Positions 5,978 to 43,871 of a stretch of DNA of 64,000 nt are shown in pieces. A program made the translations under genes and the position numbers. This stretch comes from Naegleria gruberi (taxonomy: Eukaryota): assembly GCA_000004985.1 (NCBI GenBank), contig GG738857.1, one strand, 5' to 3'. The notes under the pieces were generated by a model that saw nothing but the letters and a program-made list of their open reading frames with translations, was not told the DNA's origin and did no database searches. Position 1 is the first letter of the stretch. The number at the start of each line of letters is the position of its first letter.

Positions 5978-6058
5978 GCAGACTTGGCCGAGAGGTTAAG
6001 GCGCGAGACTCGAAATCTCGTGGGGAAACCTTCGTAGGTTCGAATCCTGCAGTCTGCG
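5978..6058 (+). tRNA. tRNA-Ser (anticodon CGA)
   Basis: Cloverleaf: acceptor GCAGACT/AGTCTGC, D-arm GCC-GAGAGGTTAA-GGC, anticodon stem CGAGA/TCTCG with loop CTCGAAA (anticodon CGA), long class-II variable arm, T-arm AGG-TTCGAAT-CCT, discriminator G. Confidence 0.9.
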
Positions 6059-8876: not shown

Positions 8877-8991
8877 AATAACCAAAGTTTAAACACCTTC
8901 TGACCTAGATGTTGGTTAATTAAGAGATTTTAGGTTCCGATTTATTAAGATATTAAGACATTAGCATATTTTTATGAGGAATGAATAAGAT

Positions 8992-9063
8992 TCCCGTGTA
9001 GTCCAATGGCTAGGATACCTGGCTTTCACCCAGGAGGTCCGGGTTCAATTCCCGGCATGGGAG
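8992..9063 (+). tRNA. tRNA-Glu (anticodon TTC)
   Basis: TCCCGTG-TA-GTCC-AATGGCTA-GGAT-A-CCTGG-CTTTCAC-CCAGG-AGGTC-CGGGT-TCAATTC-CCGGC-ATGGGA-G. Anticodon loop CTTTCAC. Typical eukaryotic tRNA-Glu 5' end TCCCNTNTGGTCTA-like. Confidence 0.9.
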
Positions 9064-9707
9064 AATCATTTTGTTTATTATTCAAAAAACTAGTCTTAAT
9101 TCGTGATAGTTCCTGTTTGAGATTTTCGACCACAAGCTTAGGTCAGAAATTATTTCCTTCCAAACAATCCGATGGGATATCCTGTTGTTTTTCTTATCTA
9201 CCATTGACGCACTTGTCCCTTCTTCAATGAAACTGAATATTTTTAAAATTCTTACTTCATTCCAATAGAAATAGTTCTCATCTTCAACGCTTAGTGTTTT
9301 TAATTAAAAAATGAACAGTTCTAACTAATTTACTAGACTTGGGCTAGTTCCATTGTTTTCGTTTGTAAAAGCAAATGTCGAGATGTGGCCACATTTGACT
9401 CCTCAAAGAAATTCTTCGCTCAACAACAAATTCCATTTAACTTTTTTCGAATCGTAAAATAAATTAACAAAATAATCATGAAGTTAACAAGTATCTAAAA
9501 TAGTTTCTGACTACCATTCTAAACAAATAACTTTTCACAAGAATCATTTTCACATCATCAAGTACCCAATTACCCAACCAAAAAAAAATCATTCAATACC
9601 CTACCTCATCCTAGTCTGGTCAATTGATACGTATTGACGTTAATTTTCACAACAACACTCATCAACGCCTGTTTTCCATCAAAACTAATCAAAACTAATT
9701 CAAACTA

Positions 9708-13623: not shown

Positions 13624-15363
13624 TTAATCTACATTATTGAGCAACTCGTCCATCTTTCTCTTTTTTGATTGTGATTCCTCTTCGTCTTCTGATTCACTCG
13701 AATAATATTCAGCATATTCGCTATCAGAATCAAATACTTCATCAAACTCCTTAGTTTCCTCTCTGTATCGTTTTGGTTTTGGAATATCATATACTTCACT
13801 TCTTGTACCCCAATAATTAAACCAATCTTTGTATTCCCTCTCATCTAGTTCTTTTACAAGTTTTCTGAGTCTCCAATTTTGTTTCAATCTATTTGAGGCA
13901 TACTCAATGCTATAAGAATTATCCTTCACAGCCTCTGTAACAATTTCTAGATCATCCTTGAATGTATCAGATACATGCTGGAGTACAAATCCATTACCTT
14001 TAACAGTCTCCAAAATAAACTCTCTATCACTTTTCAACTCCTCTGGAATCTGCTGGAAAAGTGCTGAGTTTTTTTTGAGTGCATTCAATAGCATGTTTCT
14101 GTCAACATTACCAAAATCTTTCATTTTCTCTAAAATTAATGGAACATTTTCTCGTGATAAAAGTGTGGCCTTCTTAATGTCATCCTCTCTTTCCATAATA
14201 TATTCTATTGCATTGGTGTGAGTGGATGTTGTCATGGATAGAACTTCCCAGTCATTTTGTAAATCAGGATCAGCATACACAATAGCACTTCCATCATTGG
14301 AAACGGCTGCCAAAACAATTTCCTTATCTGCCTGAAGCTCTTCTGAGGCATATTCCAAAGATAGCCCACAATTTCTTACTGCATTCAATACAATTTCACG
14401 ATCATCTCCATAATCTTCCCAAATATAACTCAAAACTTCTCCATTTTCATTTACACATTCCAAAATGAAATCTCTATCCTGATATAGTTCATCACACGAA
14501 TATTGAATTGCATATGGAAAGGTTTTGATAGCTTCCAAAATGATTTCGTTGTCTCGGAGGAATTCATTGTTCACAAATTGAATAGCCTCTCCATTATTCT
14601 TTAGGGCAAGTAAAACCATTTCTCTGGTTTGATTCTCTGCATAAAACAACATTTCCCCACAATGTCTCACCATACGGCAGAAATCTTTTGTGTTCACATA
14701 AAATGGTTGTCGGAACTGCCAGTCATCCAATGGATTCTGACTATATTTTACAGATATTCTTTGCAGTTCGTCACTGGCATCTAGGTCCAGTTCAAAGATA
14801 TTTAGATCTGGATGCTCTTTTGTTAATCGTTTAAGAAAATCCATATTCGTTTGGTAATGCTGACCAGTCGCAAAAACTCCTGAATTCAAAGCCACGTACT
14901 TTCCCACACTTTGACTGATATAATATTCATCATTTTCCAAATAAGGATCATCAATACATGCAATTTCAAATAGCTCTGTACAAGCATGTCCACATGAATC
15001 CACAAATTGATAAGCTGATCCATCGTTCTTAATAGCTTCCTTACAAACATCATAAGTGACCAAACCATGATCTGAAACACAACTCAGAGCATACCCATTT
15101 TGTTTAACAGCTTCTAACAACAATCCATACTCTACAATTTCATCATCATTGAAATATTCCATTGCCATTCCATTGTGTTGTACAGCTTTTAAAGCAAGCT
15201 TCTCACGAAGATCATCGCTAGCCAAGTCAATCAATTCACAACAATACATGCCAGCCTTTAACATGAATTCTTCATCGGAGCCTAATATTTTCATCATTGA
15301 AGCTTCAATAGGAAAGTCAGAACAAACCGATGGATAATATTCCATGAGCCTCATGTTAATCAT
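13624..15363 (-). CDS. DUF4116 repeat-containing protein
   Basis: Repeated ~25-aa units of the form (E/D)(I/V)VLxAVxxNGxALxYAsxELxxD(K/R)E (e.g. DREIVLNAVRNCGLSLEYASEELQADKEIVLAAVSNDGSAIVYADPDLQND). Acidic C-terminus. Possible short 5' exon at 15356-15562. Confidence 0.65.
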   Translation of the reverse strand: MINMRLMEYYPSVCSDFPIEASMMKILGSDEEFMLKAGMYCCELIDLASDDLREKLALKAVQHNGMAMEYFNDDEIVEYGLLLEAVKQNGYALSCVSDHGLVTYDVCKEAIKNDGSAYQFVDSCGHACTELFEIACIDDPYLENDEYYISQSVGKYVALNSGVFATGQHYQTNMDFLKRLTKEHPDLNIFELDLDASDELQRISVKYSQNPLDDWQFRQPFYVNTKDFCRMVRHCGEMLFYAENQTREMVLLALKNNGEAIQFVNNEFLRDNEIILEAIKTFPYAIQYSCDELYQDRDFILECVNENGEVLSYIWEDYGDDREIVLNAVRNCGLSLEYASEELQADKEIVLAAVSNDGSAIVYADPDLQNDWEVLSMTTSTHTNAIEYIMEREDDIKKATLLSRENVPLILEKMKDFGNVDRNMLLNALKKNSALFQQIPEELKSDREFILETVKGNGFVLQHVSDTFKDDLEIVTEAVKDNSYSIEYASNRLKQNWRLRKLVKELDEREYKDWFNYWGTRSEVYDIPKPKRYREETKEFDEVFDSDSEYAEYYSSESEDEEESQSKKRKMDELLNNVD

Positions 15364-23338: not shown

Positions 23339-26227
23339 TTACTTTTTTACAATAATTGTACTTCCTTGTTCTTCCTCTTTCTTTGTCAACTTGAGAAGTA
23401 CACTCTTTGGAAGGAATTTGAGAGCACCATCTCTGACCATTCTTTTAACTCCTGATTTTGCTAGATAAACATCCACACCTTCCCAAACAGTCTTCTTTTG
23501 AACTGTTTTAATTCTTTCTTGCATTGCATTTTCATACTTTTCAAAAGCTTGTTGTAAGCAACTATCGAAATAAATACTCTTCTCCAATGGGATTGTATGT
23601 AAATTATCTTCACCTTCTGTCGAGGCATGGGTTTCTAAAACATTTCTCAATTCCAAAGCAAGAGTTTTAGCAGCAACAATGGCCAAAGCACCACCTTTAC
23701 CACTCAATGGAGTACAAGCTTGACAAGCATCACCAACTAGTACGCATTTGCCCTTGTACCAATTGTCTAAATTTCTAATTTGAGCCAAATCGTCATAGTA
23801 AATGATTCTGCTATCAAAAACGAGATCCATAATGTCGTGGAATAAGAATCCACAATCATCAAACTTGTTCTTTAAGAAATTCTTTCTATCTTCAGCTGAA
23901 ATAAAGAAAGTCTTTGAGTGGTGTGACTTTTCAACCTTTTTCTTCTTTTGTTTCTTTTCTGATTTTTCATTTGGAGACTTTTCGTCATTGCTTGTTGGTG
24001 AACTGCTGCTGTTGTTTGAGTTTGGAGTAACACATTTTTCTTCCAAGTTTTGGACGCTTGCTGATTCTCTGTTGGCCATCGACTCGTTAACCATTTCCAT
24101 AAAAGCTTCAGCAATTTCCTCATCCTCTTCCTCCATTACTTCCTCATGATCTTCAGAGCTGTCACTTGAGTGAGTAACTGATCTTTGATCGTCATTGTCA
24201 TGATGATCTTCAAACTTGTTAATGTCGAATGAGTAGAAATGATTTGTTAAAGATGAAGCAGATGAAGATGGATCTTGAGCCAAGTCATTCTTGATTGGAG
24301 ATTCGGTATGTTTTCTAAATAGAGAAAATCTCTTTCTCCACTTTTCATGAGTTGAAGGTGATTTGCTATCATTTGGTGAATCAATAAGTGCATCATCTAC
24401 AAATGATTTACTCTTACTGACAGTGTAACTTGAGCTTTCTTTCAACATGTCCTCTTCTTTTGGTTGTCTGTACACCAATGATACTGAAAGCTTGTTACCA
24501 TACCTCAGCACATTCATATAACGTCCATGATTTAACAAAACTGAGCTAGATTCTCCATCTTTGATTAACTCGGCAAGTTTCTTAGAAACTTCTTTCATTT
24601 TGGCAATTCTGTCGGGTGTCAATGGTTCTAATCCCTTAATTCCACTAATTTGTGTTGGGTCAAAAGATTCTGTCGACTTCTTCTCCGATCCATAAACATT
24701 ATTCCAATACTTTTCACTCACTTGTTGCTCATCTGCCTCTGTCAAAATCATGTCAACAATAAAGCAAAAGTATCCAACTCCCAAAAAATGTTTAAAATTG
24801 CTCTCATCACCAAAGATTAGTGCTCTAGTTTGACTGTGAATACCATCAGACCCAACCACTAGATCATATTCTTCTCTTTCTATTTGATATAATTTACGAT
24901 CTTCTGTCGATTGATAAACTGAACTCTCAAACGAATCACCTTCATTGAAAGTTACAAGTAAATCATTCATTGAAGTTCTCTTTGGATCATTGATAGTATT
25001 CAATGGAGCAGACATTGGACTACCTTCAAGTAAAATGTTACTTGAACTATCGGACTTGGTTTTTTGTGATGGAGATTGAGCATTTGATTCCTTCTTTTGG
25101 AAAAATCTTCTCCAACCTGCTGATTCCTTTCCTGCACTGTTTGGTGTTGCAATTTCTGCTGGTGTTGTTGTTGAGCTCTTTTTCATTGCTTCCTCTTCCA
25201 TTTGTTGCAAATCTCCTGAAGAACCAGTTGACTTTCTCTTGTGAAGTTTTGAAAGTCTATTAGTAGGACTATCCTTCCTTTCTAAATTTGAAATATCATT
25301 CAAAATTCTAGTATTAAGTGGTGAATTAACACTACAAACTGAACTTGATCTCTTCATTTGAATATTTTCTTGTTGTTCCTTTTGATATTGTAAATGCAAC
25401 CAATCATTCTTATTCATTAGAGTAACTTCAATCTTTTCCTTGTTAAATAAACTTGGTCTCATACTGTAAATTACTCTATTCATCTTGAAATGTTTATCAT
25501 CGGAAAGTTCATCATCTGAAGAAGGTGTTGAACTATTCGAATGTAAATTAGCATTGGAAAGAATGGTTAAATTTCCATCTCGTCGGACTATTAATGGTTT
25601 AATTCTCTTCATTAAAATCTCATGAAATTTATGTCTTTCATATCTTCTACCTTCTTCTTTATATTTAATAACTGAAGATTCATCAAAACTTCTTACGTGA
25701 CGTCCATTCTTGGTGTAGAAATGTTGTTTGGATCTTGGAATTTCAATTTGATGGAGCTCTTCTTCTAGATTCATTTCTTTGAGAGCTCTTATAACTTGTT
25801 CTCCTTCTAGTGTTATGATGGCACCTACTTGTCTATAGTTTGAAATTATAATAGGACTTTCGAATAAATTATTTGAAACTTACCTATACACTGAAGCCTT
25901 CTCTACAATAGTAATTTCGATTGGTAAATTGTTGTGTTTATGACTCAATGAATGAAGTAAATAATAGGAAAAGACTAAACCTGCAAAACCTCCTCCACTC
26001 ACTAACACTTTATAGGTATGATGACTATTCGAATGATGATTCGAATGATGTTTATGATTATTTTGTTGAGAAATCAATGACGATGAACGTCCATAAGAGA
26101 AAAAGTAATTATTATCCTGTTGTTGATTTGTAGATGGAGGTGATTGTGAAGATGATGAATTTTCCTCATCATCATTATCTCCAAAATATCTATGAGTGCT
26201 GATATCTTGATTGTTGGAAAGCATCAT
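23339..26227 (-). CDS. FAD-dependent monooxygenase (PHBH/salicylate-hydroxylase fold) with very large low-complexity insertions, 2 exons
   Basis: Exon 1 (26227-~25889): dinucleotide-binding YKVLVSGGGFAGLVFSYYL...IVEKASVYR. Intron ~25839-25888 (gtaagtttc...ctatag). Exon 2: QVGAIITLEGEQV..., DLVVGSDGIHSQTRALIFG (GxDGxxSxxR motif) and GKCVLVGDACQACTPLSGKGGALAIVAAKTLALEL (GDAxH/GQG-like region). The motifs are separated by hundreds of Ser/Asn/Glu-rich residues. Confidence 0.7.
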
Positions 26228-26935: not shown

Positions 26936-28859
26936 ATGCTCAACAATAGAATCATCCCTACCACTCCCTACATTAATCCAAAACTTAATTATGGTGCTGC
27001 TGTTATAGCAAATTTACATCTTGATCAAGTTGTAGAAGTGAAGGGATCGCATTGGTATTGTGATCCATCCGTTGTAACAAAAGAAAAGATATTCGGACCT
27101 ACAACAACTCTTCAAGTTGGTGGAATGGACGCCATTGATACTGCTTTTGTTAAAAGTGTTCAAAATTCAATGTTTTTCCGATTTGATCTTGATGATGAAT
27201 TTGTAGTCAATAGAAATTATTCGCTAATTATTAATGGAAATACTTTACAAGTTGATAAGGAACTTGTTTGTAAATATTCAAGTGTATTGAAACAATTAAT
27301 TGATTCGTCTTCATCATCGGAAGTTGTGATTGAAGAGAGTCAAGGTGAATATTTACAACATGTATTAACATTTATTCATGAAGGAAAGTTAGGTGTTGAA
27401 TCATCTAAATTCTCCTCTCAACAAGATGCTGGATTGATCAATTTGAAACAATTAATAGAATTGATTAAAATAGCAGACAAGTATCAAGTTGAAAGTTTAT
27501 TAGTAGAAATTGCAAATATTGTTAATGATATGATTGCCATGATTATTATTGAGAAATGTAAAACTATTTCAAATGAGGGCAAGAAGATAGTATTTGAAAA
27601 GTGTTATGAATTTATTGGATTCAATCCAGCAAGTGTTGTTGCTGCTAAAGTTTACAATGACCAACCAATTATCACAAACTTTTTAGAAGATTTCAGGATA
27701 AAGATGCAAGAACTTCAATTAGCTTCAGAAGATATGATTATTGATTATTTATTCTCAGAAAATGGATATGATGTCAATGTTGATATTACAAACAACAAGA
27801 AGACTTTTGCTAAAATGATTGGTGCCCTAAAAACCGATGCATCATTGATTGCCTTTTCTGAATTGGATGCTGAAACATTGATGGGAATTTTGGGTAGCAA
27901 GTTTTTATCAATGAAAACTGAAGTATTATTGAGCGTTCTTGTAGGATGGTATTTAGCTGATACTAGTAGACTTGAAGATGCATGCAAATTTTTATTAGCA
28001 AACGATTGGAGTGATTGCGAAAGAGAAGCTTTTAACCTATTATTTTACAATATTTTCATATTTGGAGCTAAAAAACATGAAAATACTGAACTGTTGGACA
28101 AACTTAGAGATAAGCTCAGCCAAAATATGTTCAAGAAAGAAAATGTTATGGGTGATGAGTGGCATGTTTACAATGAAAATAGACCACCAAGATCAGCTTA
28201 TCGTAATAACTCTGGAGATTTGAGAGTTTTATTGCTTGGATTGGATGCTTCAGGAAAGACCTGCATCTTATACATGATGAAATTAGGAGAAAGAATTACA
28301 ACAGTAAGTAATTAGTCGCTTTGCAAGTTTTTGAATGTTTGTGAAGATTCCAACAATTGGTTTCAATGTGGAAACAGTGAATAGTTGTGGAAAGAATTTA
28401 ACTGTTTGGGATGTTGGTGGCCAAGATAAGATTCGCCCATTGTGGAGACACTATTATTCCAACACCTCAATTGTCATGTTTGTTGTTGATGCTTGTGACA
28501 GAGAAAGATTTGAGGATGCTTGTGATTGCATTCAAAGACTTGGATCAGAAGATGATTTGAAGGATTGTACCATTTTGGTATTTGCAAACAAGATGGATTT
28601 ACCAAATAGTGCCTCTATCAAAGAAATTGTTGAAAAATTAGAATTGAATAGATTGAAAAATCCAAATTGGATGGTTCAAGGTTGCAGTGCAACTCAAAAC
28701 ATTGGTTTAGAGGAGGGTTTCAAACTTGTAATTAAGGCTCACCAATACCAATCCCAGAATACTGCTGTTATTGAACAGTTGACCTCTCAAGAACATGAGA
28801 AGCCACCAAGAACCACTACTCACTTTGGACTCTTTGAACCTAAATTTAACACATTTTAA
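26936..28859 (+). CDS. BTB/POZ domain - Arf/Arl-family small GTPase fusion protein, 2 exons
   Basis: Exon 1 26936-28303: BTB-like (DDEFVVNRNYSLIINGNTLQVDKELVCKYSSVLKQLIDSS...YLQHVLTFIHEGKL) and Arf P-loop start LLLGLDASGKTCILYMMK. Donor gtaagt at 28304. Exon 2 28347-28859: IPTIGFNVETV, WDVGGQDKIRPLWRHYY, LVFANKMDL, CSAT (G1-G5 Arf motifs). Confidence 0.75.
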
Positions 28860-29533: not shown

Positions 29534-31756
29534 ATGGTAAAGAAAAGAATCAGCAACAAGAATGAAGAGAAGGACGACCTTCTTGATGCGAACTCCGGAG
29601 AGGATGCAATAACTTCGGAATCATCAACTATAGCATCTGCTGTTAGTAGTACAATGCAACAACAACAAGTAGACAATAACAATATGCATCATCGTAAACT
29701 TGCATTGGAGGAGGATGAATCATGCAATACTAATTCTCATCATCATGCTAATGATTATTCCAAGCAAGTAGTAGAAGATTCAGAACAAGAAGGTACTTTG
29801 AATGCACAAGGTGTGAATGATGAGACTGATCATGCACAAGTAGCAATTTCTAATAATCAAATACAGAATGAAGTGACTAGTAATGAAGTGAATATTCCTG
29901 ATGGCATGACTAGAAAGCAAAGAATTATAAATCACTTGAAAATGGGAAAGAATGAGCTGATTCAAGTTTTAAAATTATGTTGGCCTGCTGTTGTGATGAA
30001 TGTTTGTTTTCAATTACTTGGTTTGGAAAGTTTGTCTTTTATTGGACATATTACTTTGGAGGATAATGAAATTCCAGGCATTACTAAGGATAAAGTTGGT
30101 GAATTGTATATGGCAGCAGCATCTTTGGGAAATTCATTCTTTTTCTGTATGTTTATTTAACATTTTCATTTTAATTTTCAACTATTTCTAAAATAGGTCT
30201 TGGATTTGTAATTGTTGGATTAATTCATGGTCAAGATACACTCGTTTCACAGGCGGTTGGTGCTAAAAATTTCATTAGAGCTGGTCACGTTTTAGCACGA
30301 TCCCTACTTACCATTCTATTGTGTTCAATTCCAATTTGTGTAGCATTGTGTTTTGCTAATTATTCTCTCTATTGGATGAATCAGGAAAAAGTTTTGGTTG
30401 ATCTAGTTGGAAATTATTTAAGAATTTTAACACCTGGTATGATTCCATTTGTGGTTTGTGAGGCATTGTCTCTGTATTTAATTGCTCAGAATATTTTAAT
30501 GCCAAATGTCATTATTTGGATTATTTCTGTAATTATTAATTTTGGATTGAATTGGTTATTAGTTTTTGGATTTGGATTTGATTCTCTTGGATTTGTAGGA
30601 GCTCCAGTAGCATTAACCATTACAAGATATATCATGTTGGTCATGTACATTGTATTTATTTATTTCAAAGGTTATATGAAAGAAACATGGAAAGGATTTA
30701 TTGATATTAAGGCTGTTTTTAAATGGGATGGATTTAAGGAATATTTGAAATTGGCTCTTCCAGGTTCTGTCATGTTAGCAGTAAGTAATTATTCTATTCT
30801 CAAAACAAATTTGAAACATATTGATATGAAGGCTGAGGTTTGGGGATTTGAGTTATCAACAATTACTTCCTCCTTCTTAGGACCAACTGCATTGGCATCC
30901 CATAGTATTGTTCTTAATATTTGTGCCTTGACATTTATGGTTCCTTTATCAATCGCTACTGCAACAGCCATCAAAATTGGACAATATATGGGTGGTAGAG
31001 AACCAATCAAAGCCAAATATACATCTTATGCATCAATGGTCTTCTCAGGATTATTCATGTTCTGTTCTGGAACTACATTGGCCATATGTAGAGAGTGGAT
31101 TCCACAAATTTACACACAAGATGCTGATATTATTTACAATGCTTCCATTATCTTCCCATTGTGTGCTCTCTTCCAATTCTTTGATGGTGTTCAAGCAATT
31201 GCTGGAGCTACCATTAGAGGTGTCGGCAAGCAAATTGTTGGTGCTGCCAGTACTCTCATTGCTTATTACGTAAGTTGTTCACACAATACTATTACTAATT
31301 CCTGCAAATTTAAAGATTATTGGTTTACCTATTGGAGCTGTATTAGCCTTTGTTGCTGGTTGGGGACTTGTTGGTATTTGGTCTGGATTAGCCATTGCTC
31401 TCTTCTCTGTATTTGTTGGCATGTTATTGTTCATTCGTTTTAGAATTAATTGGGAGAAGGAAGCAGAGGTTGCCTACAATAGAGCAACAACAAAAACATC
31501 AGAAGGATCTTCATCAGTAGAACTGGAAGCAACAGCAGCAGATGAATCAACAACAAGCAACAAGATGATGACAACACAAGTAGAATTGGAGGAAGGAAGA
31601 GTGGATGAAGAAAACAAGGCTGTTGTTATTGATGGTCAAGCAGAAGATTCTAGTGTATCGCCATCTTTGGAAGAAGATGAGGACTATTCAAGAGTGAATA
31701 GCAGAGTAAATTTACTGCAGAGCACGAGCACAGTTGCGCTGGAGGATGAAGAATAA
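29534..31756 (+). CDS. MATE (multidrug and toxic compound extrusion) family transporter, 4 exons
   Basis: Exons ~29534-30146, 30197-30780, 30832-31269, 31316-31756. Donors gtatgt, gtaagt, gtaagt. Phase checked. N-terminal hydrophilic extension, then LKLCWPAVVMNVCFQLLGLESLSFIGH, GLIHGQDTLVSQAVGAKNF, VMLA|AEVWGFELSTI. 12 predicted TM helices. Acidic C-terminal tail. Confidence 0.8.
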
Positions 31757-31967: not shown

Positions 31968-33826
31968 ATGGCTTCTCTTTCTGCTTCAGCCTCATCAAAA
32001 AGTTTAACGGGAAACAACAAGCAAAGTTCCGAAGATCATGTCTGGATAAATGGTTTGTATTGTATTGTATAAGAATATGAATTAATTGTTCTTCTTTAGC
32101 TTGGTATGATCCTCTTGCTTCCGTTACCTCTCTTTCACAATGTATGATGTTTTCTGATATTAATGGTGATGGAGACTACAAACTTGTGGTAGCTACTGCA
32201 AGTAAGAATCCCTTAGAAAGTAAAAAGACAAAACAAGCTCACAGATTGAGAGTCTATAAAGGTACTGGTATTATCAGCGAAAATGTTTTAATGGAGGAAC
32301 CTATTGCACTCGCTTCCTACTACACTGACTACTCATCACCTAAAAGACCTATGATTGTCGTCGCAAGTAGTAATCACATTTACTATTACAAAAACCTACA
32401 ACCATTCTACAAGTTTACTATGCCGGCAAAGACTACAGAAGAAAAGGAAGTGGAAATTTGGCAATATTTAAAGGAATCTAAATATGATGCCAAGACTGGT
32501 TACGCTGAATTAGCAAGACTTAGAGATCATAATATTACTCTTAGTACAAGGAGTTACGAACTTCTTTCTCTTACATCAAATGAAGATATTAAGGCGTTCA
32601 TTGATACCAGGAAAAATTTTGCCTTGGAGAGTCCAAATAATATTACAACTCTATCAATTCTTCCAAAAGACAGAGAAGGAGATGACGCAATTGGATGTCC
32701 AGTTGTCGGTACAGAGAGCGGAATAGTTTTTATCTTAACTCCCCAAGGATCACAAATCATGAAAGCTGTTCAATTGCCTTCAGCACCTGTAAAATTTTGT
32801 ATTGCTGGTAACTATGATAGTGATTATAGAATTACAGCAGCATGTAGAAATGGAAATGTATATACCATTAAAAATGGAGAAGTGAGTGGCGTGGTTATTG
32901 AGTTGGAATCTCATCCAGTTTCTATTGTAAAAATAGACAAAACTTTTGCTATTGGCCTTATGAACAATAGTATTCATTGCTACAATACAAGAGGAAAGAA
33001 ACAATACTCTATCTATTTACCATCTAATATTAAGGACATGGAAGTTCTTGAAATGAGAGGCCAACGTAGTGTGAAATGCATAATAGTAGCTATGGAGAAC
33101 AAGGAATTGAGAATTTATAATGGTAAAAATTTGGTAAATAGGATTGAATTATTTGAAAATATTGCCAGTCTCAGATATGGAATATACGGATCTGAGGTTA
33201 ATAGTTTAATCATTTCTTATAGAAATGGCGGTCTTGATTTTAAAGTTATCTCAAGAAAGGCAAGTTTGGAGAGCAAATCCAAAACTGGTCCACCACCAGA
33301 ACAGGAAGAGCCTTTGGATTTACCCTCCAAGACTTTCCTTTATTTGGAACAAACAAAGAGAGAAGTGGATTATTGCTCTGAAATGCATAATGTTTTCCAA
33401 AAAGATTTGGCAAGAATTAGACTTCACACTGCGAGGGCATATGTTAAAATTTTGACAGATGGCCAAGGTCCATTATCTTACACTTCCGGATCCTCTATTC
33501 GCTTGACGGCCCAAGTGCAAGGACTAGGTCCAAAGTTTAAGATTAATATTGAGGTTCAGAATACTGGCAAAAAGTCAATTTCCCAGTTATTCATTCTATT
33601 TGTTTTTAATGAAGATCTTTACTCGGTGGAGGGTGATGCAAGAAGATTGCTTCTTCCTCCTCTTCTTCCAGGACCAGTATACAGATTTAGTAAGGCAGTA
33701 ACCATGCTTGATCCTTTAGTTGCCCCAGAAACAATGAAATTATATGTTTGTAGTAAGGAGAGTCAAACACCTGTAATAACTGCTGTTGTAAATATGCCAC
33801 CAACAGAAATGATTGAATTAGTATAA
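31968..33826 (+). CDS. BBS1: Bardet-Biedl syndrome 1 protein (BBS1, BBSome subunit) homologue, 2 exons
   Basis: Exon 1 31968-32052 (MASLSASASS...HVWIN, donor ggtttgt), exon 2 32100-33826. Collinear with metazoan BBS1: HVWINAWYDP vs WLDAHYDP, DGDYKLVV, YYYKNLQPFYKFTMP vs YVYKNLRPYFKFSLP, AACRNGNVYTIKNGE vs AACRNGNIYILRRD, GPPPEQE, HNVFQKDLARIRLHTARAYVKIL vs [40 protein letters not shown] vs QGLGPTFKLTLHLQNTS. Confidence 0.85.
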
Positions 33827-35522: not shown

Positions 35523-38500
35523 TTATATTAAAACTCTCTTGTATGTAATTAAATATTCAGGATAGCATTGATTCCTATCATAGATAATATATTCATTGTA
35601 GGTGTGTTGTGATACCGACTTGGATCTTCCAATAACACTGTCATAAACTCTTCCATTTGAGTTTTCAATGACAGGTGGTCTTCTTTCATTTCTCATCTTT
35701 TCCCTTGTTTTGAAAACCATCTGACCTAACAGAACTCTACTGAGAAATATAAAACACTCACCATCCTTATTCGAAACACAATATTGATCACTCTTACTAC
35801 AGCAATCAGCAAAGTATATTCCAGCTCCAAACAAACCACTCAAAGCACTCAATCTTTCATCAAAGCCGTGTTCTGAAATGATTGACTTGACTACTTCTGT
35901 TGTTCCATGCCATAAATAAACTTCATTCACATTGGAATCTAATTCACACATTTCGTCAACAAAATCATTTCTAATTGGTATATCCATTACCTTCTTTTTA
36001 TCCTTATAGGAAATTAGGTGTTTCTTCTTTGATAGATACATTTCATAAAGTGATAAATTCTCAATTCTTTCCACTTTTAGAACTTGTAACTTGTTATATG
36101 GAAATGAATCTTTTTCATGGTTTCGTTTCTTTCCTAATGTAATTGTTACACATGTCTTATCCAATAAATCTTGAATATCCTCTTTTAATTCAGCGGTAAC
36201 ATCTATAATTGACATGTTATTTTGATTTGATTTCCAATAGGAAGGCTTTTGTTTCGTTTCCTTTCTTCTTGTCCCACGAAAGAATTCATGTCTTAATAAC
36301 TCAGATGCAGATAAAGTACAAATTTCTTCACGAATATTAATTGAGTCCATTAGCGTTTTCAAAAGAGATGAATATTCATCGAGTCGTTCCATTGACATGA
36401 TGTCAATTACCATTTTCACGAAACAAAACATTTCTTTCTGGAATGGTAATTTGTTTCCCTTTTCCTCTATTTTCACAACATTATCAAATCCATCCAATAT
36501 TAATTTAACTTGTTCATCTTCAATAATTTTCACATACACATTCGCAGCTCTAATATTTCCATGAACAAATGAATAGGTATGAAAATGATGAATGGCTGAA
36601 AGAATCTGAAACCAAATATCTTCCCATCCTGATCTAATGGATGAAAAATCTTTCAATGTTCCAATTGAGTAATATGGCATAACAATACAAAGTTTATCTT
36701 GACAAAGATAAAATCCAATTAATTCTGCAATATTTGAATGTTTGATTTTCTCTAGAATTTCAACTTGTTCAATTACCATTTCAATTTTATCCAATGAATA
36801 TTGTTTAACACGATAGAAAATATTCGAATTCTTATCAACTGCCTCAATAAGCATATAATTCAGAAATGCAGTTTCACTAATTGTAGTCAATTCCAAAGTG
36901 CTTACATCTTGAATTCCTATAATTTCTGATAGTAAATCATAGAATCCTGATCGATAGAGTGTAATTGATTTGTTTCGAATATCATTTCTGTTAATTTGAA
37001 GAGTTTCGAGTTCAGTTTCTTGTTCCATAATTTTTAGACAGGGCGCAGTTGATGTTGAGTTGTTTGTTTCCCACAATTTTTTCTCAATTTCAATTGATCT
37101 TTTGCGTGCTTCAATGTTCTCACTCATTAATTTGTAATTAATTCCATATTTAGAAATATCAAATTTAGAAATTATTGTTAAAGTTAATTGCATATTTTTA
37201 AATTCATTACAGATGGTAGTAATATTATTGATAAAATCAAGGCAATTATTTTTCATATCATCAATAAAGTAGCAATATCCTTTCAATTTCTTTTTCAATA
37301 AATGATACAATTCCAAATTTGGATTTTCTTTCAATAAGGAAAATAATTTTGAAATGGAATCTCCAATATCATTTGTATCATTGCTTATTTCTGAAAATTC
37401 AAGTGTTGAAATATTACTTGAAAAATTTGAAAGAAAATTTGCAACTCCACTCAATTGCTTATTACATGTATTAATCCATTTCTCCAAATTAGTCGAATAT
37501 TCTTCAAATGTTAATTCCAATTCTTCATAATTCGATATTTCATTACATGGAATTTCTTCTCCACCATTCAAAAATTCATTAATTTCTTTAGAAATTTCAC
37601 TCAAACTCTTTACAAATTCAATAAGAAAATTTCCATAATCACTTTTCTTAATTTGATTATTCATTGATTCATGGATTTGAAATTTGCTTCGAAATTCAAT
37701 TAAATCTTGAGGATTTTGTGATGAATAAATCGATTTTGAATTAATTTGGATAGGGCTGAGAAGATTCTTAATATCTGTAAACTTTTTCATGTCATATTCG
37801 TTAATTATGATATTTCTAATAAGTCTATCAGTGGTAAATCTTATAGTTTCCAATTGATTTTTCCTATTTTTGTATTCGAAACCTAATTGGGAAAGCTCTG
37901 TAAATATTGATGCAAAATGAATGAATTTAATTTCTATTGGAGATGTGCTAGTAGATGCTTGACTCACTTCTACATTAATTTCTTTTGTTTCCACATTAGT
38001 CTTATTTCTTTTTTCAGATTTCATTTCCTTTTGAATCGTTTTTATGGATTTCCCGCCACATTTCAATGCTATTGATATTTTGATATTAGGATGTTCTAAT
38101 AATAATTTTCACAATTTCAATTTTATCTCTTTCGCAAGCAACTTGCAAAGGTGTTTTAACCTTCCAAAATTGGTAAAATAAAAACTTGCAAATTAATACT
38201 TACCATCTTTAATCTTAAAACTCAATTAATTAAATATCAAACTTACATTCTGAATAATTCAATAAATGTATACTCATCATTAACAAGTTACTTACACCCT
38301 TATTAACATCCAATTCATTTGATTCCAATAATAATTTCACAATTTCAAGATGACCATCATAACATGCAATAAACAAACAAGTTTGTTCTGATTCTACACC
38401 ACAAAATGTCTTGAATAACAAGCTAATAAGTATTCATTTTGCTTCAAATCATACTTACTTCATTGACATTGACAAGTGACAGTAAATATTTGACAATCTC

Positions 38501-41994: not shown

Positions 41995-43871
41995 ATGAGC
42001 ACCAGCACCCTCATCAAACCACAAGCAGGTAAAAACTTTGTCGTTTGCATTGACTTTGGATCTTCAGGTTCTGGCAGTTCAATTCTCTTCGTAAAGGATG
42101 AAGATAAAATTTTCACTCTCAAAACTTATCCAGACTCCCCTAACGTAGTTTACAATAAGAATATGTCATGTATTTTATATGAAGATGGTAAGAGACATAG
42201 TATTGGTTATACTGCTAGAAAGACAATGTTCTTTGAAAATGATGACGAAGATTCAGATGAAGATTCCGGTGAAGATTCGGATAGAGATTCAGATAGTGAA
42301 AGTGAAGAATCTCATGGATCAACTTCAACTGCTCCATCAAAAAAATCAGCAACTCCACTAAAAGATAGAAAATTTATCAGAGATTTAAAAATTCAATTCA
42401 TGGAAGCAACAAAAGATGAGAAGGAAATTTCAATTCCAGAAATAGTAATTTCCAATGATGGAACAACCAAATCTTTACTTGATGTGATGGCAGATTACTT
42501 ATCCATGTTATTCACAGATTTTATCATGAAGAGTTTAAAGAATAACGATAGCTCTGTTAAGAAAACTGATGTTCGTTGGTGCATTACAGTTCCCGCCAAC
42601 TATTCAGAACATCAAAAATCCCTAATGAGGAAAGTGGCATGTAAGGCAAAGATTATAGATAAGGAAAATTGTGATGAGAGTGATTTGATTATCATTTCTG
42701 AACCAGATGCTGCTACCATGTTCTGTATGAAACATAAGGCTAAATCTAAACCACTTACAAATGGTGAAACTTTTATGGTAGTTGATGCTGGTGGTGGTAC
42801 TGTAGATGGTAAGTTTGAGAAATTCTTGATTTAACATTTAAATTCTGTAACAGTCAGTTGTCATATGCTTGAAAATGGTAAATTGAAAGAGTTGGCAGTT
42901 CAAAAGGCAGAGCTATGTGGTTCTACATTTATTGATAGAGAATTTATTAAGATTTTAGAAGAAAATTGTGATAATTTCAAAGAATTTACAGAGAAAAATC
43001 CAGAAACTCTTGTCAAGATATTATCAATTTGGGAAGATGTTAAGAGAGGTACTTTGACAGTTGACAAGAAATTGACATTTGACACATCTCCAATGTTTAA
43101 AAAAGCAAAACCTAATAGTTCAATTTACAAATCAAGATCTACCAAGATTGCATTAACAGATGAACAAATGAAAAGAATATTTGACAGTCAAGTGTCAAAA
43201 GCACTCAAATTGATTGATGAAGTTTATAGAGATTATGAAGAAGATTATCCAAGTAGAAAGATGGATCACTTATTTATTGTTGGTGGTTTAGGAGATAATG
43301 GTTATTTCCAAAATCGTATTAAGGAAAGATTTGAAAAGAAATTTAAGGAAATTTTAATTCCACTTTTCTGTTCGACAGCTGTCATGGAAGGAGGTGCATT
43401 ACTTGCTAAGGATCCATCATTCGTTCAAGAAAATCAAAGTTATCATATGGTGTTGGTGTCATGGAAGAATTTGAAGAAGGGCATCATGCTGAAAGCAAGT
43501 ACAAGGTCATTAATGGTAAACATATGGCAGTTGACGTGTTGGATGTTTTTGTTGAACAACGTGAAGAAGTTGAAATTGATAGAGAAATTGTTAGAGAATA
43601 TGAATGTTTACCAGGTGCTACTCAAATTGATGTTGTTCTCTATTCATCTATTAAGAGAAGAGAAGCAATTCCTTATATTGATTCACCACTAGTTTCTAAA
43701 GAGGAAACAATTACAATTCCTTTTAGAGATTCATCAAAGGAGGCAGATAGAAGAGTTTTTATTAAATTCTTCTTTGGTAAATCAGAATTAATGATTACTG
43801 TTGAAAATGCACAAGGTGAAGTTAAGGAAATTAAGAGAGATTTTGAAGCAAACTCACTTGCCCTAAAATAA
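41995..43871 (+). CDS. HSPA12-like atypical Hsp70 (actin-like ATPase) protein 1; one intron plus an apparent frameshift (possible pseudogene)
   Basis: VVCIDFGSSGSGSS (phosphate-1), ISEPDAATMFC, FMVVDAGGGTVD (phosphate-2). Intron ~42810-42853 (gtaagt...aacag) gives GGGTVD-V-SCHMLENGKLKELAVQKAELCGSTFIDREF, collinear with paralogue 2. LFIVGGLGDNGYF (adenosine motif). Near 43411-43420 the reading frame must shift by 1 nt to continue into the conserved C-terminus (…LLAKDPS / IIRSRKSKLSYGVGVMEEFEEG…, matching paralogue 2 DSLISTRRMRMTYGVKAQKGSEE). Confidence 0.6.

What the first reader, a model, noticed from the sequence alone, without database searches (positions are those of the whole stretch)
26936..28859. 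BTB/POZ - Arf GTPase fusion
The N-terminal ~430 aa contain a BTB-like fold. The C-terminal 190 aa form a complete Arf/Arl GTPase (GLDASGKT P-loop split by an intron from IPTIGFNVETV; WDVGGQD; NKMDL; CSAT). This is the reverse order of RhoBTB (GTPase then BTB). BTB plus small GTPase fusions are candidate Cul3 adaptors regulated by the nucleotide state.
Basis: partly seen in the sequence, partly recalled or inferred. Interest (0 to 1): 0.5.

Follow-up and report, generated by a model that had tools for sequence, protein, structure and literature searches.

The report
Naegleria BTB–Arf GTPase fusion gene
This is a real two-exon Naegleria gruberi gene, already annotated, that joins a BTB/BACK scaffold to an Arf1-like GTPase; the family is published, and this copy lacks the usual contact motif for the Cul3 ubiquitin ligase.

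Summary
The window is Naegleria gruberi NEG-M. Exon 1 (26936-28303), a 43-nt GTAAGT..AG phase-0 intron (28304-28346) and exon 2 (28347-28859) give a 626-aa protein. It is identical to RefSeq XP_002679438.1, "ARF/SAR family small GTPase".

The domains are an N-terminal extension, BTB (about 95-195), a BACK-like helical region (about 200-400), an Arf1-like GTPase (426-586, Pfam E=7e-57, all G motifs intact) and a 40-aa tail. The BTB-helical part and the P-loop share one uninterrupted ORF, so the fusion does not depend on the intron.

The kind is not new. Vargová et al. 2021 list this protein as NgrArf1c and flag four N. gruberi ARF-family proteins (NgrArf1j/k/l, NgrArlX2) as BTB-ARF fusions. They did not flag BTB in this one. 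Relatives with the same architecture occur in N. lovaniensis, N. fowleri and Willaertia magna.

The N-terminal model resembles Cul3 adaptors (KLHL11, KBTBD2, SPOP). However, this paralog has a deletion of the α3.1 helix that carries the φ-x-E Cul3-contact motif. Eight of 11 relatives keep that motif. Nucleotide-gated Cul3 adaptor function is therefore plausible for the family and doubtful for this copy. Interest is low to moderate.

The parts
26936..28303 (+). Exon 1 (codons 1-456). It holds the N-terminal extension, BTB, BACK-like helices, linker and the first 31 residues of the Arf domain including the P-loop.
   Evidence: ORF list. The splice reconstruction is identical to XP_002679438.1.
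27044..27187 (+). Family-specific N-terminal extension (residues 37-84) with the conserved SHWYCD (27047-27064) and VQNSMFFRF (27158-27184) motifs.
   Evidence: Alignment A1. The AF2 model has strand 39-42, helix 69-77 and strand 79-84.
27218..27520 (+). BTB/POZ domain (residues about 95-195; Pfam match 97-193).
27302..27322 (+). Poly-serine loop DSSSSSE (residues 123-129) in place of helix α3.1 and the φ-x-E (M-x-E-S-K) Cul3-contact motif. There is a 4-residue deletion relative to paralogs and SPOP.
   Evidence: Alignments. The AF2 model has no helix between H116-124 and strand 129-132. The motif is defined in PMC3616122.
27533..28138 (+). BACK-like all-helical region (residues about 200-401), including the 3-box-equivalent helices directly after BTB.
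28139..28210 (+). Linker (residues 402-425) with the semi-conserved D-E-(D)-W motif (GDEWHVY, 28151-28171). It sits where free Arfs carry their N-terminal amphipathic helix.
   Evidence: Alignment A1 columns 701-715. Low pLDDT with a short helix at 408-414.
28211..28303 (+). Arf domain, first part (residues 426-456): β1, P-loop GLDASGKT (28238-28261) and α1.
   Evidence: Pfam Arf 426-586. PDB ARF1 alignments.
28304..28346 (+). Intron of 43 nt, GTAAGT...AAG, phase 0, with an in-frame TAG at 28313-28315.
   Evidence: Sequence. Paralog NgrArf1k has a 42-nt GTAAGTAAT..TAG intron at the same codon boundary. Other introns of about 45-50 nt occur in the window. The intron is identical in a second strain.
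28347..28736 (+). Arf domain, second part (residues 457-586): switch I IPTIGFNVETV, switch II WDVGGQDKIRPLWRHYY (28407-28457), NKMD (28587-28598), CSAT (28683-28694).
   Evidence: Pfam Arf E=7.2e-57. 55-60% identity to ARF1, with both switches identical. The AF2 model superposes on Arf1-GTP at 1.0 Å.
28737..28859 (+). C-terminal tail of 40 aa (residues 587-626; a helix then a low-confidence segment, with no lipidation motif) followed by the TAA stop.
   Evidence: Translation. pLDDT below 50 for 594-626.

Best explanation
Shown: this is one two-exon Naegleria gruberi gene (NgrArf1c, XP_002679438.1). It encodes, from N to C terminus, a family-specific extension, a BTB domain, a BACK-like helical region, a complete Arf1-like GTPase that lacks the myristoylated N-terminal amphipathic helix, and a short tail. 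It belongs to a paralog family found so far only in Naegleria and Willaertia, in which the same N-terminal module is always followed by an Arf domain.

Inferred mechanism: the BTB-BACK module makes a scaffold, probably dimeric, of the KLHL/KBTBD/SPOP type. The Arf domain sits where those adaptors carry their Kelch or MATH substrate-binding domain. GTP loading, with switch I and II identical to Arf1, would then decide which partners the scaffold holds. For most family members the scaffold probably docks on Cul3, because M-x-E-S-K is conserved. In this paralog the α3.1 helix carrying that motif is deleted. NgrArf1c therefore most likely binds Cul3 weakly or not at all on its own. It would act either through BTB heterodimers with Cul3-competent paralogs or as a Cul3-independent, possibly competing, GTP-switched scaffold.

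My confidence is about 0.95 for the gene structure and architecture. It is about 0.35 for the mechanistic part.
For: - Gene model: exact identity with the RefSeq protein.
- Fusion: the BTB-helical region and the P-loop lie in one ORF. Splicing restores the canonical TT|IPTIGFNVETV sequence.
- Intron: the same intron position occurs in paralog NgrArf1k.
- Architecture in relatives: of 12 hits to the N-terminal 425 aa, one is spurious. Ten of the other 11 carry an Arf P-loop or domain after it, and one is a fragment without it.
- Arf domain: E=7e-57, all G motifs present, switches 100% identical to ARF1.
- Loss of φ-x-E here and retention in 8 of 11 relatives. The importance of the motif is documented in PMC3616122.
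- Conservation: the coding sequence is 99.6% identical between two strains, against about 91% in the upstream spacer. This is consistent with a gene under constraint.
- Literature: BTB-ARF fusions are noted as recurrent recruitment into ubiquitin circuits (PMC8358228).
Against: - No transcript, protein or interaction data were available here.
- The Pfam BTB score for this protein alone is only just above threshold.
- The Pfam BACK model is not hit.
- I did not establish that N. gruberi has a Cul3 orthologue.
- Some BTB proteins bind Cul3 with divergent contact residues, so loss of φ-x-E does not prove loss of binding.
- Only 7 coding differences (4 non-synonymous, 3 synonymous) separate the two strains. 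That is too few to measure selection.
Confidence: 0.55

Rival explanations
1. This paralog is itself a canonical Cul3 substrate adaptor. BTB-BACK binds Cul3 directly, and the Arf domain recruits substrates or localises the ligase according to its GTP/GDP state.
For: The N-terminal fold is closest to Cul3 adaptors solved in complex with Cul3: KLHL11, KBTBD2, SPOP and KEAP1. The 3-box/BACK-equivalent helices are present. The family consensus M-x-E-S-K is the same as in SPOP and KLHL3. The literature links BTB-ARF fusions to ubiquitination.
Against: In this protein the α3.1 helix with φ-x-E is deleted and replaced by DSSSSSE. In all three BTB-Cul3 structures compared in PMC3616122, the φ residue buries the most surface, and KLHL3 E85A abolishes measurable binding. 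Neither Cul3 in N. gruberi nor any interaction was tested.
Confidence: 0.25
2. The Arf GTPase is the business end, and the N-terminal module is an intramolecular regulator or targeting and oligomerisation device, as in TRIM23/ARD1. It would replace the missing amphipathic helix, with no ubiquitin ligase involved.
For: The Arf domain is the best-conserved part: 55-60% identical to Arf1 with identical switches. The N-terminal part is only 21-30% identical to the N-terminal parts of relatives. Gly2 and the amphipathic helix are absent because the domain is internal. A semi-conserved D-E-D-W helix sits where the Arf N-terminal helix would be. The Cul3-contact motif is lost.
Against: BTB-BACK modules of this fold are best known as Cul3 adaptors, and most paralogs keep the contact motif. 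Nothing here shows an intramolecular contact. No GAP-like or membrane-binding feature was detected in the N-terminal part.
Confidence: 0.15
3. These are two separate genes: a BTB protein ending at the TAG at 28315, and an independent Arf gene starting at the ATG at 28335.
For: Prokaryote-style gene callers split it this way on a metagenome contig, giving products of 459 aa and 174 aa.
Against: The 459-aa product would end 21 residues after an orphan P-loop. The 174-aa product would be an Arf without G1, β1 and α1. Removing 43 nt with consensus GTAAGT..AG restores a sequence that is colinear with ARF1 without gaps. The same intron position occurs in the paralog. Full-length contiguous BTB-Arf proteins are annotated in three other species. 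RefSeq annotates the spliced form.
Confidence: 0.02
4. This is a decaying, functionally redundant paralog of an expanded family, on its way to becoming a pseudogene.
For: No close orthologue turned up in N. fowleri or N. lovaniensis. The best N-terminal match is a within-species paralog at 34% identity. The Cul3-contact motif is lost.
Against: The 626-codon frame and the splice sites are intact. All GTPase motifs are canonical. The coding sequence is far more conserved between strains than the flanking spacer.
Confidence: 0.05

Closest known systems
N. gruberi BTB-ARF paralogs NgrArf1j/k/l and NgrArlX2 (Vargová et al. 2021, GBE, PMC8358228, Supplementary Table 1)
   Same: Same organism and same order of modules: N-terminal extension, BTB, helical region, C-terminal Arf. 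NgrArf1k is the best hit of the N-terminal part (E=5e-26, 34% identity). It shares the intron between TT and IPTIGFNVET.
   Different: In that table NgrArf1c has no extra domain flagged. It lacks the M-x-E-S-K helix that NgrArf1k keeps. It keeps the catalytic Gln (WDVGGQ), whereas NgrArf1k has WDVGGA.
BTB-BACK-Kelch / KBTBD and MATH-BTB (SPOP) Cul3 substrate adaptors
   Same: BTB followed by 3-box/BACK-like helices. These are the best structural and profile matches. A C-terminal partner-binding domain follows BTB-BACK, as in KLHL and KBTBD proteins.
   Different: The C-terminal domain is an Arf GTPase, not a Kelch propeller. φ-x-E is absent in this paralog. The Pfam BACK model is not matched. 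There is an extra N-terminal extension with an HWYCD motif.
TRIM23/ARD1
   Same: A ubiquitin-system module sits at the N terminus. An Arf1-derived GTPase domain sits at the C terminus, without its own myristoylated helix (PMC8358228).
   Different: TRIM23 has RING, B-boxes and a coiled coil, so it is itself an E3. It is restricted to metazoans. It has no BTB domain and arose independently.
RhoBTB (including Dictyostelium RacA)
   Same: A small GTPase is fused to BTB in one polypeptide. RhoBTB proteins are Cul3 adaptors (established knowledge; for example PMC13437954).
   Different: The GTPase is Rho-family and N-terminal, followed by two tandem BTB domains. The order is the reverse of that here, and the origin is unrelated.
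Malawimonas californiana Rab-BTB-BACK-Arf protein (PMC8358228, Fig. 8A)
   Same: BTB and BACK domains immediately precede a C-terminal Arf domain.
   Different: It has an additional N-terminal Rab domain and comes from a different eukaryotic lineage. I did not test homology of the BTB-BACK parts.

Membership tests
ARF family GTPase (Arf1-like) | Pfam Arf domain with G1 GxxxxGK[ST], switch I Thr, G3 WDxGGQ, G4 NKxD and G5 [CS]A[TK] | tested here: met
   Pfam PF00025 E=7.2e-57. GLDASGKT, IPTIGFNVETV, WDVGGQ, NKMD and CSAT are all present. Identity to ARF1 is 55-60%. Vargová et al. classify it as Arf1 group.
ARF family GTPase (Arf1-like) | N-terminal amphipathic helix with myristoylated Gly2 for membrane insertion | tested here: not met
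   The Arf domain begins at residue 426 of 626, preceded by NRPPRSAYRNNSGDLR. There is no N-terminal Gly. The internal Met405-Gly406 has a poor myristoylation context.
BTB/POZ domain proteins | BTB fold recognised by sequence profile and by structure | tested here: met
   PF00651 21.0 bits against a cut-off of 20.5. 10 of 12 relatives hit BTB, best 6.6e-10. Family profile against SPOP 4.5e-10. The AF2 model (pLDDT 80-95 in this region) matches KLHL11, SPOP, KEAP1 and ZBTB BTB domains.
BTB-BACK Cul3 adaptors (KLHL/KBTBD/SPOP type) | 3-box/BACK helical domain directly after BTB | tested here: inconclusive
   Pfam BACK is not hit. At fold level, helices 201-401 align with KBTBD2 and KLHL11 BTB-BACK over 260-335 columns, and with about 150 of 152 residues of the SPOP BTB/3-box construct. 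The rmsd values are high and TM-scores low.
BTB-BACK Cul3 adaptors (KLHL/KBTBD/SPOP type) | φ-x-E motif in helix α3.1, the main Cul3 contact | tested here: not met
   The query has DSSSSSE with a 4-residue deletion where SPOP has EMEESKK and 8 of 11 relatives have SEMxES. The role of the motif is described in PMC3616122.
BTB-BACK Cul3 adaptors (KLHL/KBTBD/SPOP type) | Physical binding to Cul3 and substrate ubiquitination | not testable with these tools
   No interaction data were available. The presence of a Cul3 orthologue in N. gruberi was not established (one search gave nothing relevant).
RhoBTB | N-terminal Rho-family GTPase followed by tandem BTB domains | tested here: not met
   The GTPase is Arf-family and C-terminal, and there is a single BTB domain.
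TRIM23/ARD1 | RING, B-box and coiled-coil block N-terminal to the Arf domain | tested here: not met
   No RING or B-box hit in Pfam. The N-terminal part is BTB plus helices.
Naegleria/Willaertia BTB-Arf paralog family | HWYCD-type N-terminal extension, BTB, helical region and C-terminal Arf, with detectable homology of the N-terminal module | tested here: met
   An exhaustive HMMER search with residues 1-425 gave 11 real hits. All those that carry a source name are from Naegleria or Willaertia, and 10 carry an Arf P-loop or domain. Conserved columns are shown in A1. The intron position is shared with NgrArf1k.

The most novel reading that the evidence does not exclude
The Naegleria/Willaertia BTB-BACK-Arf family may be a set of Cul3 ligase adaptors in which an Arf1-like switch replaces the Kelch or MATH substrate receptor. 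Paralogs appear to have degenerated in complementary ways. NgrArf1c keeps a fully canonical GTPase but has lost the Cul3-contact helix. NgrArf1k and others keep M-x-E-S-K but have lost the catalytic Gln. BTB heterodimers would then pair one Cul3-docking subunit with one GTP-cycling subunit, giving ubiquitination that is gated by Arf GEFs and GAPs.
Probability: 0.1. Interest if true: 0.6.

Novelty: new member of a known kind. Interest (0 to 1): 0.28.

Why it matters
Fusions of small GTPases to ubiquitin-ligase modules, such as RhoBTB and TRIM23, are rare natural examples of nucleotide-gated ubiquitination. A lineage-specific BTB-BACK-Arf family would be a third, independent case, in an organism related to the pathogen N. 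fowleri.

The kind has already been reported. The gain here is modest:
- BTB/BACK is now recognised in NgrArf1c, which the 2021 survey left unflagged.
- This paralog lacks the φ-x-E contact, while others lack the catalytic Gln.

These two points give concrete predictions that can be tested. They do not amount to a new class of system.

Tried and rejected
- Word-indexed homology searches with exon 1 and with the N-terminal family profile returned only the query and one relative. The P-loop and low-complexity words probably swamped the candidate list. The exhaustive HMMER search was what found the family.
- A fold search of the full-length model was dominated by Arf structures. The N-terminal part therefore had to be modelled and searched separately.
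- The AFDB50 library was not available. I could not ask whether the N-terminal module occurs without Arf, or outside Heterolobosea.
- A literature search for the accession numbers found nothing. A search for Naegleria plus Arf plus BTB found nothing relevant. A search for Naegleria Cul3 found nothing relevant.
- I looked for tandem paralogs in the window by tblastn and found none.
- I considered internal initiation at Met405-Gly406 to make a free myristoylated Arf. I rejected it as unlikely, because the context MGDEWH is a poor N-myristoylation site and paralogs have no Met-Gly there.
- The ENA contig is genomic DNA and keeps the intron, so it gives no evidence about splicing.

Full report
**Origin of the window.** Three predicted proteins of the window are exact matches to Naegleria gruberi NEG-M RefSeq proteins on a 573-kb contig: coronin XP_002679446, XP_002679435, and the protein of this finding. 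The window is 30.7% G+C, gene-dense, and has short introns.

**Check of the observation.**
- The ORF 26936-28315 (459 aa) ends ...GLDASGKTCILYMMKLGERITT followed by VSN*. The stop lies inside a sequence that starts GTAAGT at 28304.
- Removing 28304-28346 (43 nt, GTAAGT...AAG, phase 0) joins ...ERITT to IPTIGFNVETV... in frame. The result is a 626-aa protein.
- That protein is letter-for-letter XP_002679438.1 / EFC46694.1 / D2V8J2_NAEGR, "ARF/SAR family small GTPase". The gene model is therefore already public.
- Pfam gives Arf at residues 426-586 (E=7.2e-57) and BTB at 97-193 (E=3.8e-4; 21.0 bits against a curated cut-off of 20.5).
- Against the PDB, the C-terminal part aligns without gaps to ARF1 of Plasmodium (60% identity) and to a second ARF1 chain (9qlo_CZ, 55%). 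Switch I and switch II are identical.

**One gene or two?** The fusion does not depend on the intron. The BTB-helical region and the first 31 residues of the Arf domain (β1, P-loop, α1) lie in one uninterrupted ORF. The intron splits the GTPase domain itself, between α1 and switch I.
- A "BTB protein ending at 28315" would carry an orphan P-loop. An "Arf starting at 28335" would lack G1. Neither is credible.
- The closest paralog (NgrArf1k, genomic contig L002) has a 42-nt GTAAGTAAT...TAG intron at exactly the same codon boundary (VTT | IPTIGFNVET), plus a second short intron.
- Other genes in the window have introns of about 45-50 nt with GTAAGT or GTATGT donors.
- Full-length proteins with the same architecture are annotated in N. 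lovaniensis, N. fowleri and Willaertia magna.
- A second N. gruberi-like strain (ENA ERZ929261) has the same gene. It shows 7 differences in 1,881 coding bases, none in the intron, and about 9% divergence in the upstream spacer.

**The N-terminal 425 residues.**
- An exhaustive HMMER search of 1.84 billion representative proteins found 12 hits besides the query. One is spurious and repetitive.
- Of the 11 real hits, 10 show an Arf P-loop or a whole Arf domain after the homologous region. All those that carry a source name come from Naegleria or Willaertia.
- The alignment (A1) shows three conserved parts: an N-terminal extension (SHWYCD, VQNxMFYYL), a BTB core (FIHxGxLGV, IADxYQV), and a helical region with an invariant Trp.
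- Ten of 12 members hit Pfam BTB, best E=6.6e-10. The family profile matches SPOP at 4.5e-10, followed by KBTBD2, KBTBD4, KLHL11, KLHL3 and KEAP1.
- AlphaFold2 models have pLDDT 80-95 in the BTB region and 70-90 in helices 300-400. The N-terminal model has pTM 0.74.
- The Foldseek top hits are almost all Cul3 adaptors. Alignments run up to about 320 columns over BTB plus BACK.
- The Pfam BACK model is not matched, so I call the helical region "BACK-like".

**The GTPase domain.** G1-G5 and the catalytic Gln (Q482) are intact, and the modelled domain superposes on Arf1-GTP at 1.0 Å. The domain is internal, so it has no Gly2 or myristoylated amphipathic helix. It should behave like Δ17-Arf1. This is an inference from established Arf biochemistry. 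A semi-conserved D-E-(D)-W short helix lies about 19 residues upstream of β1, where the Arf helix would be. Its role is unknown.

**Bearing on the Cul3 idea.**
- In SPOP, KLHL3 and KLHL11, the φ-x-E motif in helix α3.1 is the main Cul3 contact. KLHL3 E85A abolishes measurable binding (PMC3616122).
- The family consensus, SEM-x-ESK, has the same pattern as SPOP EMEESK and KLHL3 DMSESK. Eight of 11 members keep it.
- NgrArf1c does not. It has a 4-residue deletion and reads LIDSSSSSEVVIE (27302-27322). The model shows no helix between α3 and β4.
- Conversely, several members that keep the motif have lost the catalytic Gln: WDVGGA in NgrArf1k, WDIGGS in the N. fowleri and N. lovaniensis proteins.
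- A nucleotide-gated Cul3 adaptor is therefore a reasonable reading for the family. For this paralog, direct Cul3 docking is doubtful.
- BTB heterodimerisation as a route to Cul3 has precedent in Btbd6-Plzf (bioRxiv 10.1101/575910, listed; I saw only the abstract).

**Comparison with what is known.** Vargová et al. [quoted passage not shown] They also describe a Malawimonas Rab-BTB-BACK-Arf protein. Their Supplementary Table 1 lists XP_002679438.1 as NgrArf1c (Arf1 group, multi-exon) with no extra domain. NgrArf1j, k, l and NgrArlX2 are marked "BTB". The architecture and the family are therefore published. What is added here is:
- recognition of BTB plus BACK-like domains in NgrArf1c;
- its membership in the same N-terminal homology family;
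- the shared intron position;
- the loss of the φ-x-E contact.

RhoBTB (Rho-BTB-BTB) and TRIM23 (RING-B-box-CC-Arf) are analogues, not relatives.

**Verdict.** The functional interpretation is plausible for the family and weakened for this copy. In novelty terms it is a new member of a known kind. No functional data exist for any member. The interest lies in the testable prediction about Cul3 binding and GTP gating, not in the existence of the fusion.

Noticed in passing
window 32144-33826 (+): A BBS1 (BBSome subunit 1) gene lies 3.3 kb downstream of the BTB-Arf gene (Pfam BBS1 E=3.5e-76, plus the GAE_BBS1 domain). BBS1 is an Arl6-GTP effector in other organisms. The proximity to an Arf-family gene is probably coincidental.
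   Followed up: no
window 35523-38066 (-): A single 847-aa ORF combines a protein-kinase domain (residues about 409-523) with a PARP catalytic domain (653-843). This is an unusual pairing.
   Followed up: no
L002 2040-2125 (paralog NgrArf1k, ENA contig): The closest paralog has WDVGGA instead of WDVGGQ, so it has no catalytic Gln. It also has a second short intron just before WDVGG. It keeps the M-x-E-S-K Cul3-contact motif that the window gene has lost.
   Followed up: partly
window 23339-26227 (-): The 811-aa ORF has an FAD_binding_3 C-terminal part and long low-complexity inserts. It is probably preceded by an upstream exon at 25880-26227 that carries the GGGFAG dinucleotide-binding motif. 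This suggests a monooxygenase gene split by an intron of about 100 nt.
   Followed up: no
window 29534-31443 (+): A MATE-family transporter gene is split into two ORFs by an intron of about 50 nt (GTATGT...AATAG) around 30147-30196. Similar short introns lie near 42809 and 51944. These show that the 43-nt intron of the finding is typical for this genome.
   Followed up: partly
window 13624-15363 (-): A 579-aa protein contains seven DUF4116 repeats (E=1.3e-84).
   Followed up: no
L001 and L002 (ENA ERZ929261, run ERR1078381, labelled metagenome): This assembly contains N. gruberi-like genomic contigs. They are 99.6% identical to the window in coding sequence and about 91% identical in the upstream spacer, so they come from a second strain. 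Prokaryotic gene calling there splits the gene into 459-aa and 174-aa products.
   Followed up: partly
window 28148-28153 (Met405-Gly406): An internal Met-Gly lies 24 residues before the Arf β1 strand. This is roughly where a free Arf would start. The context (MGDEWH) is a poor N-myristoylation site, and it is not conserved in paralogs.
   Followed up: partly
window 5978-6058 and 8991-9064 (+): Two tRNA genes: Ser(CGA) and Glu(TTC).
   Followed up: no
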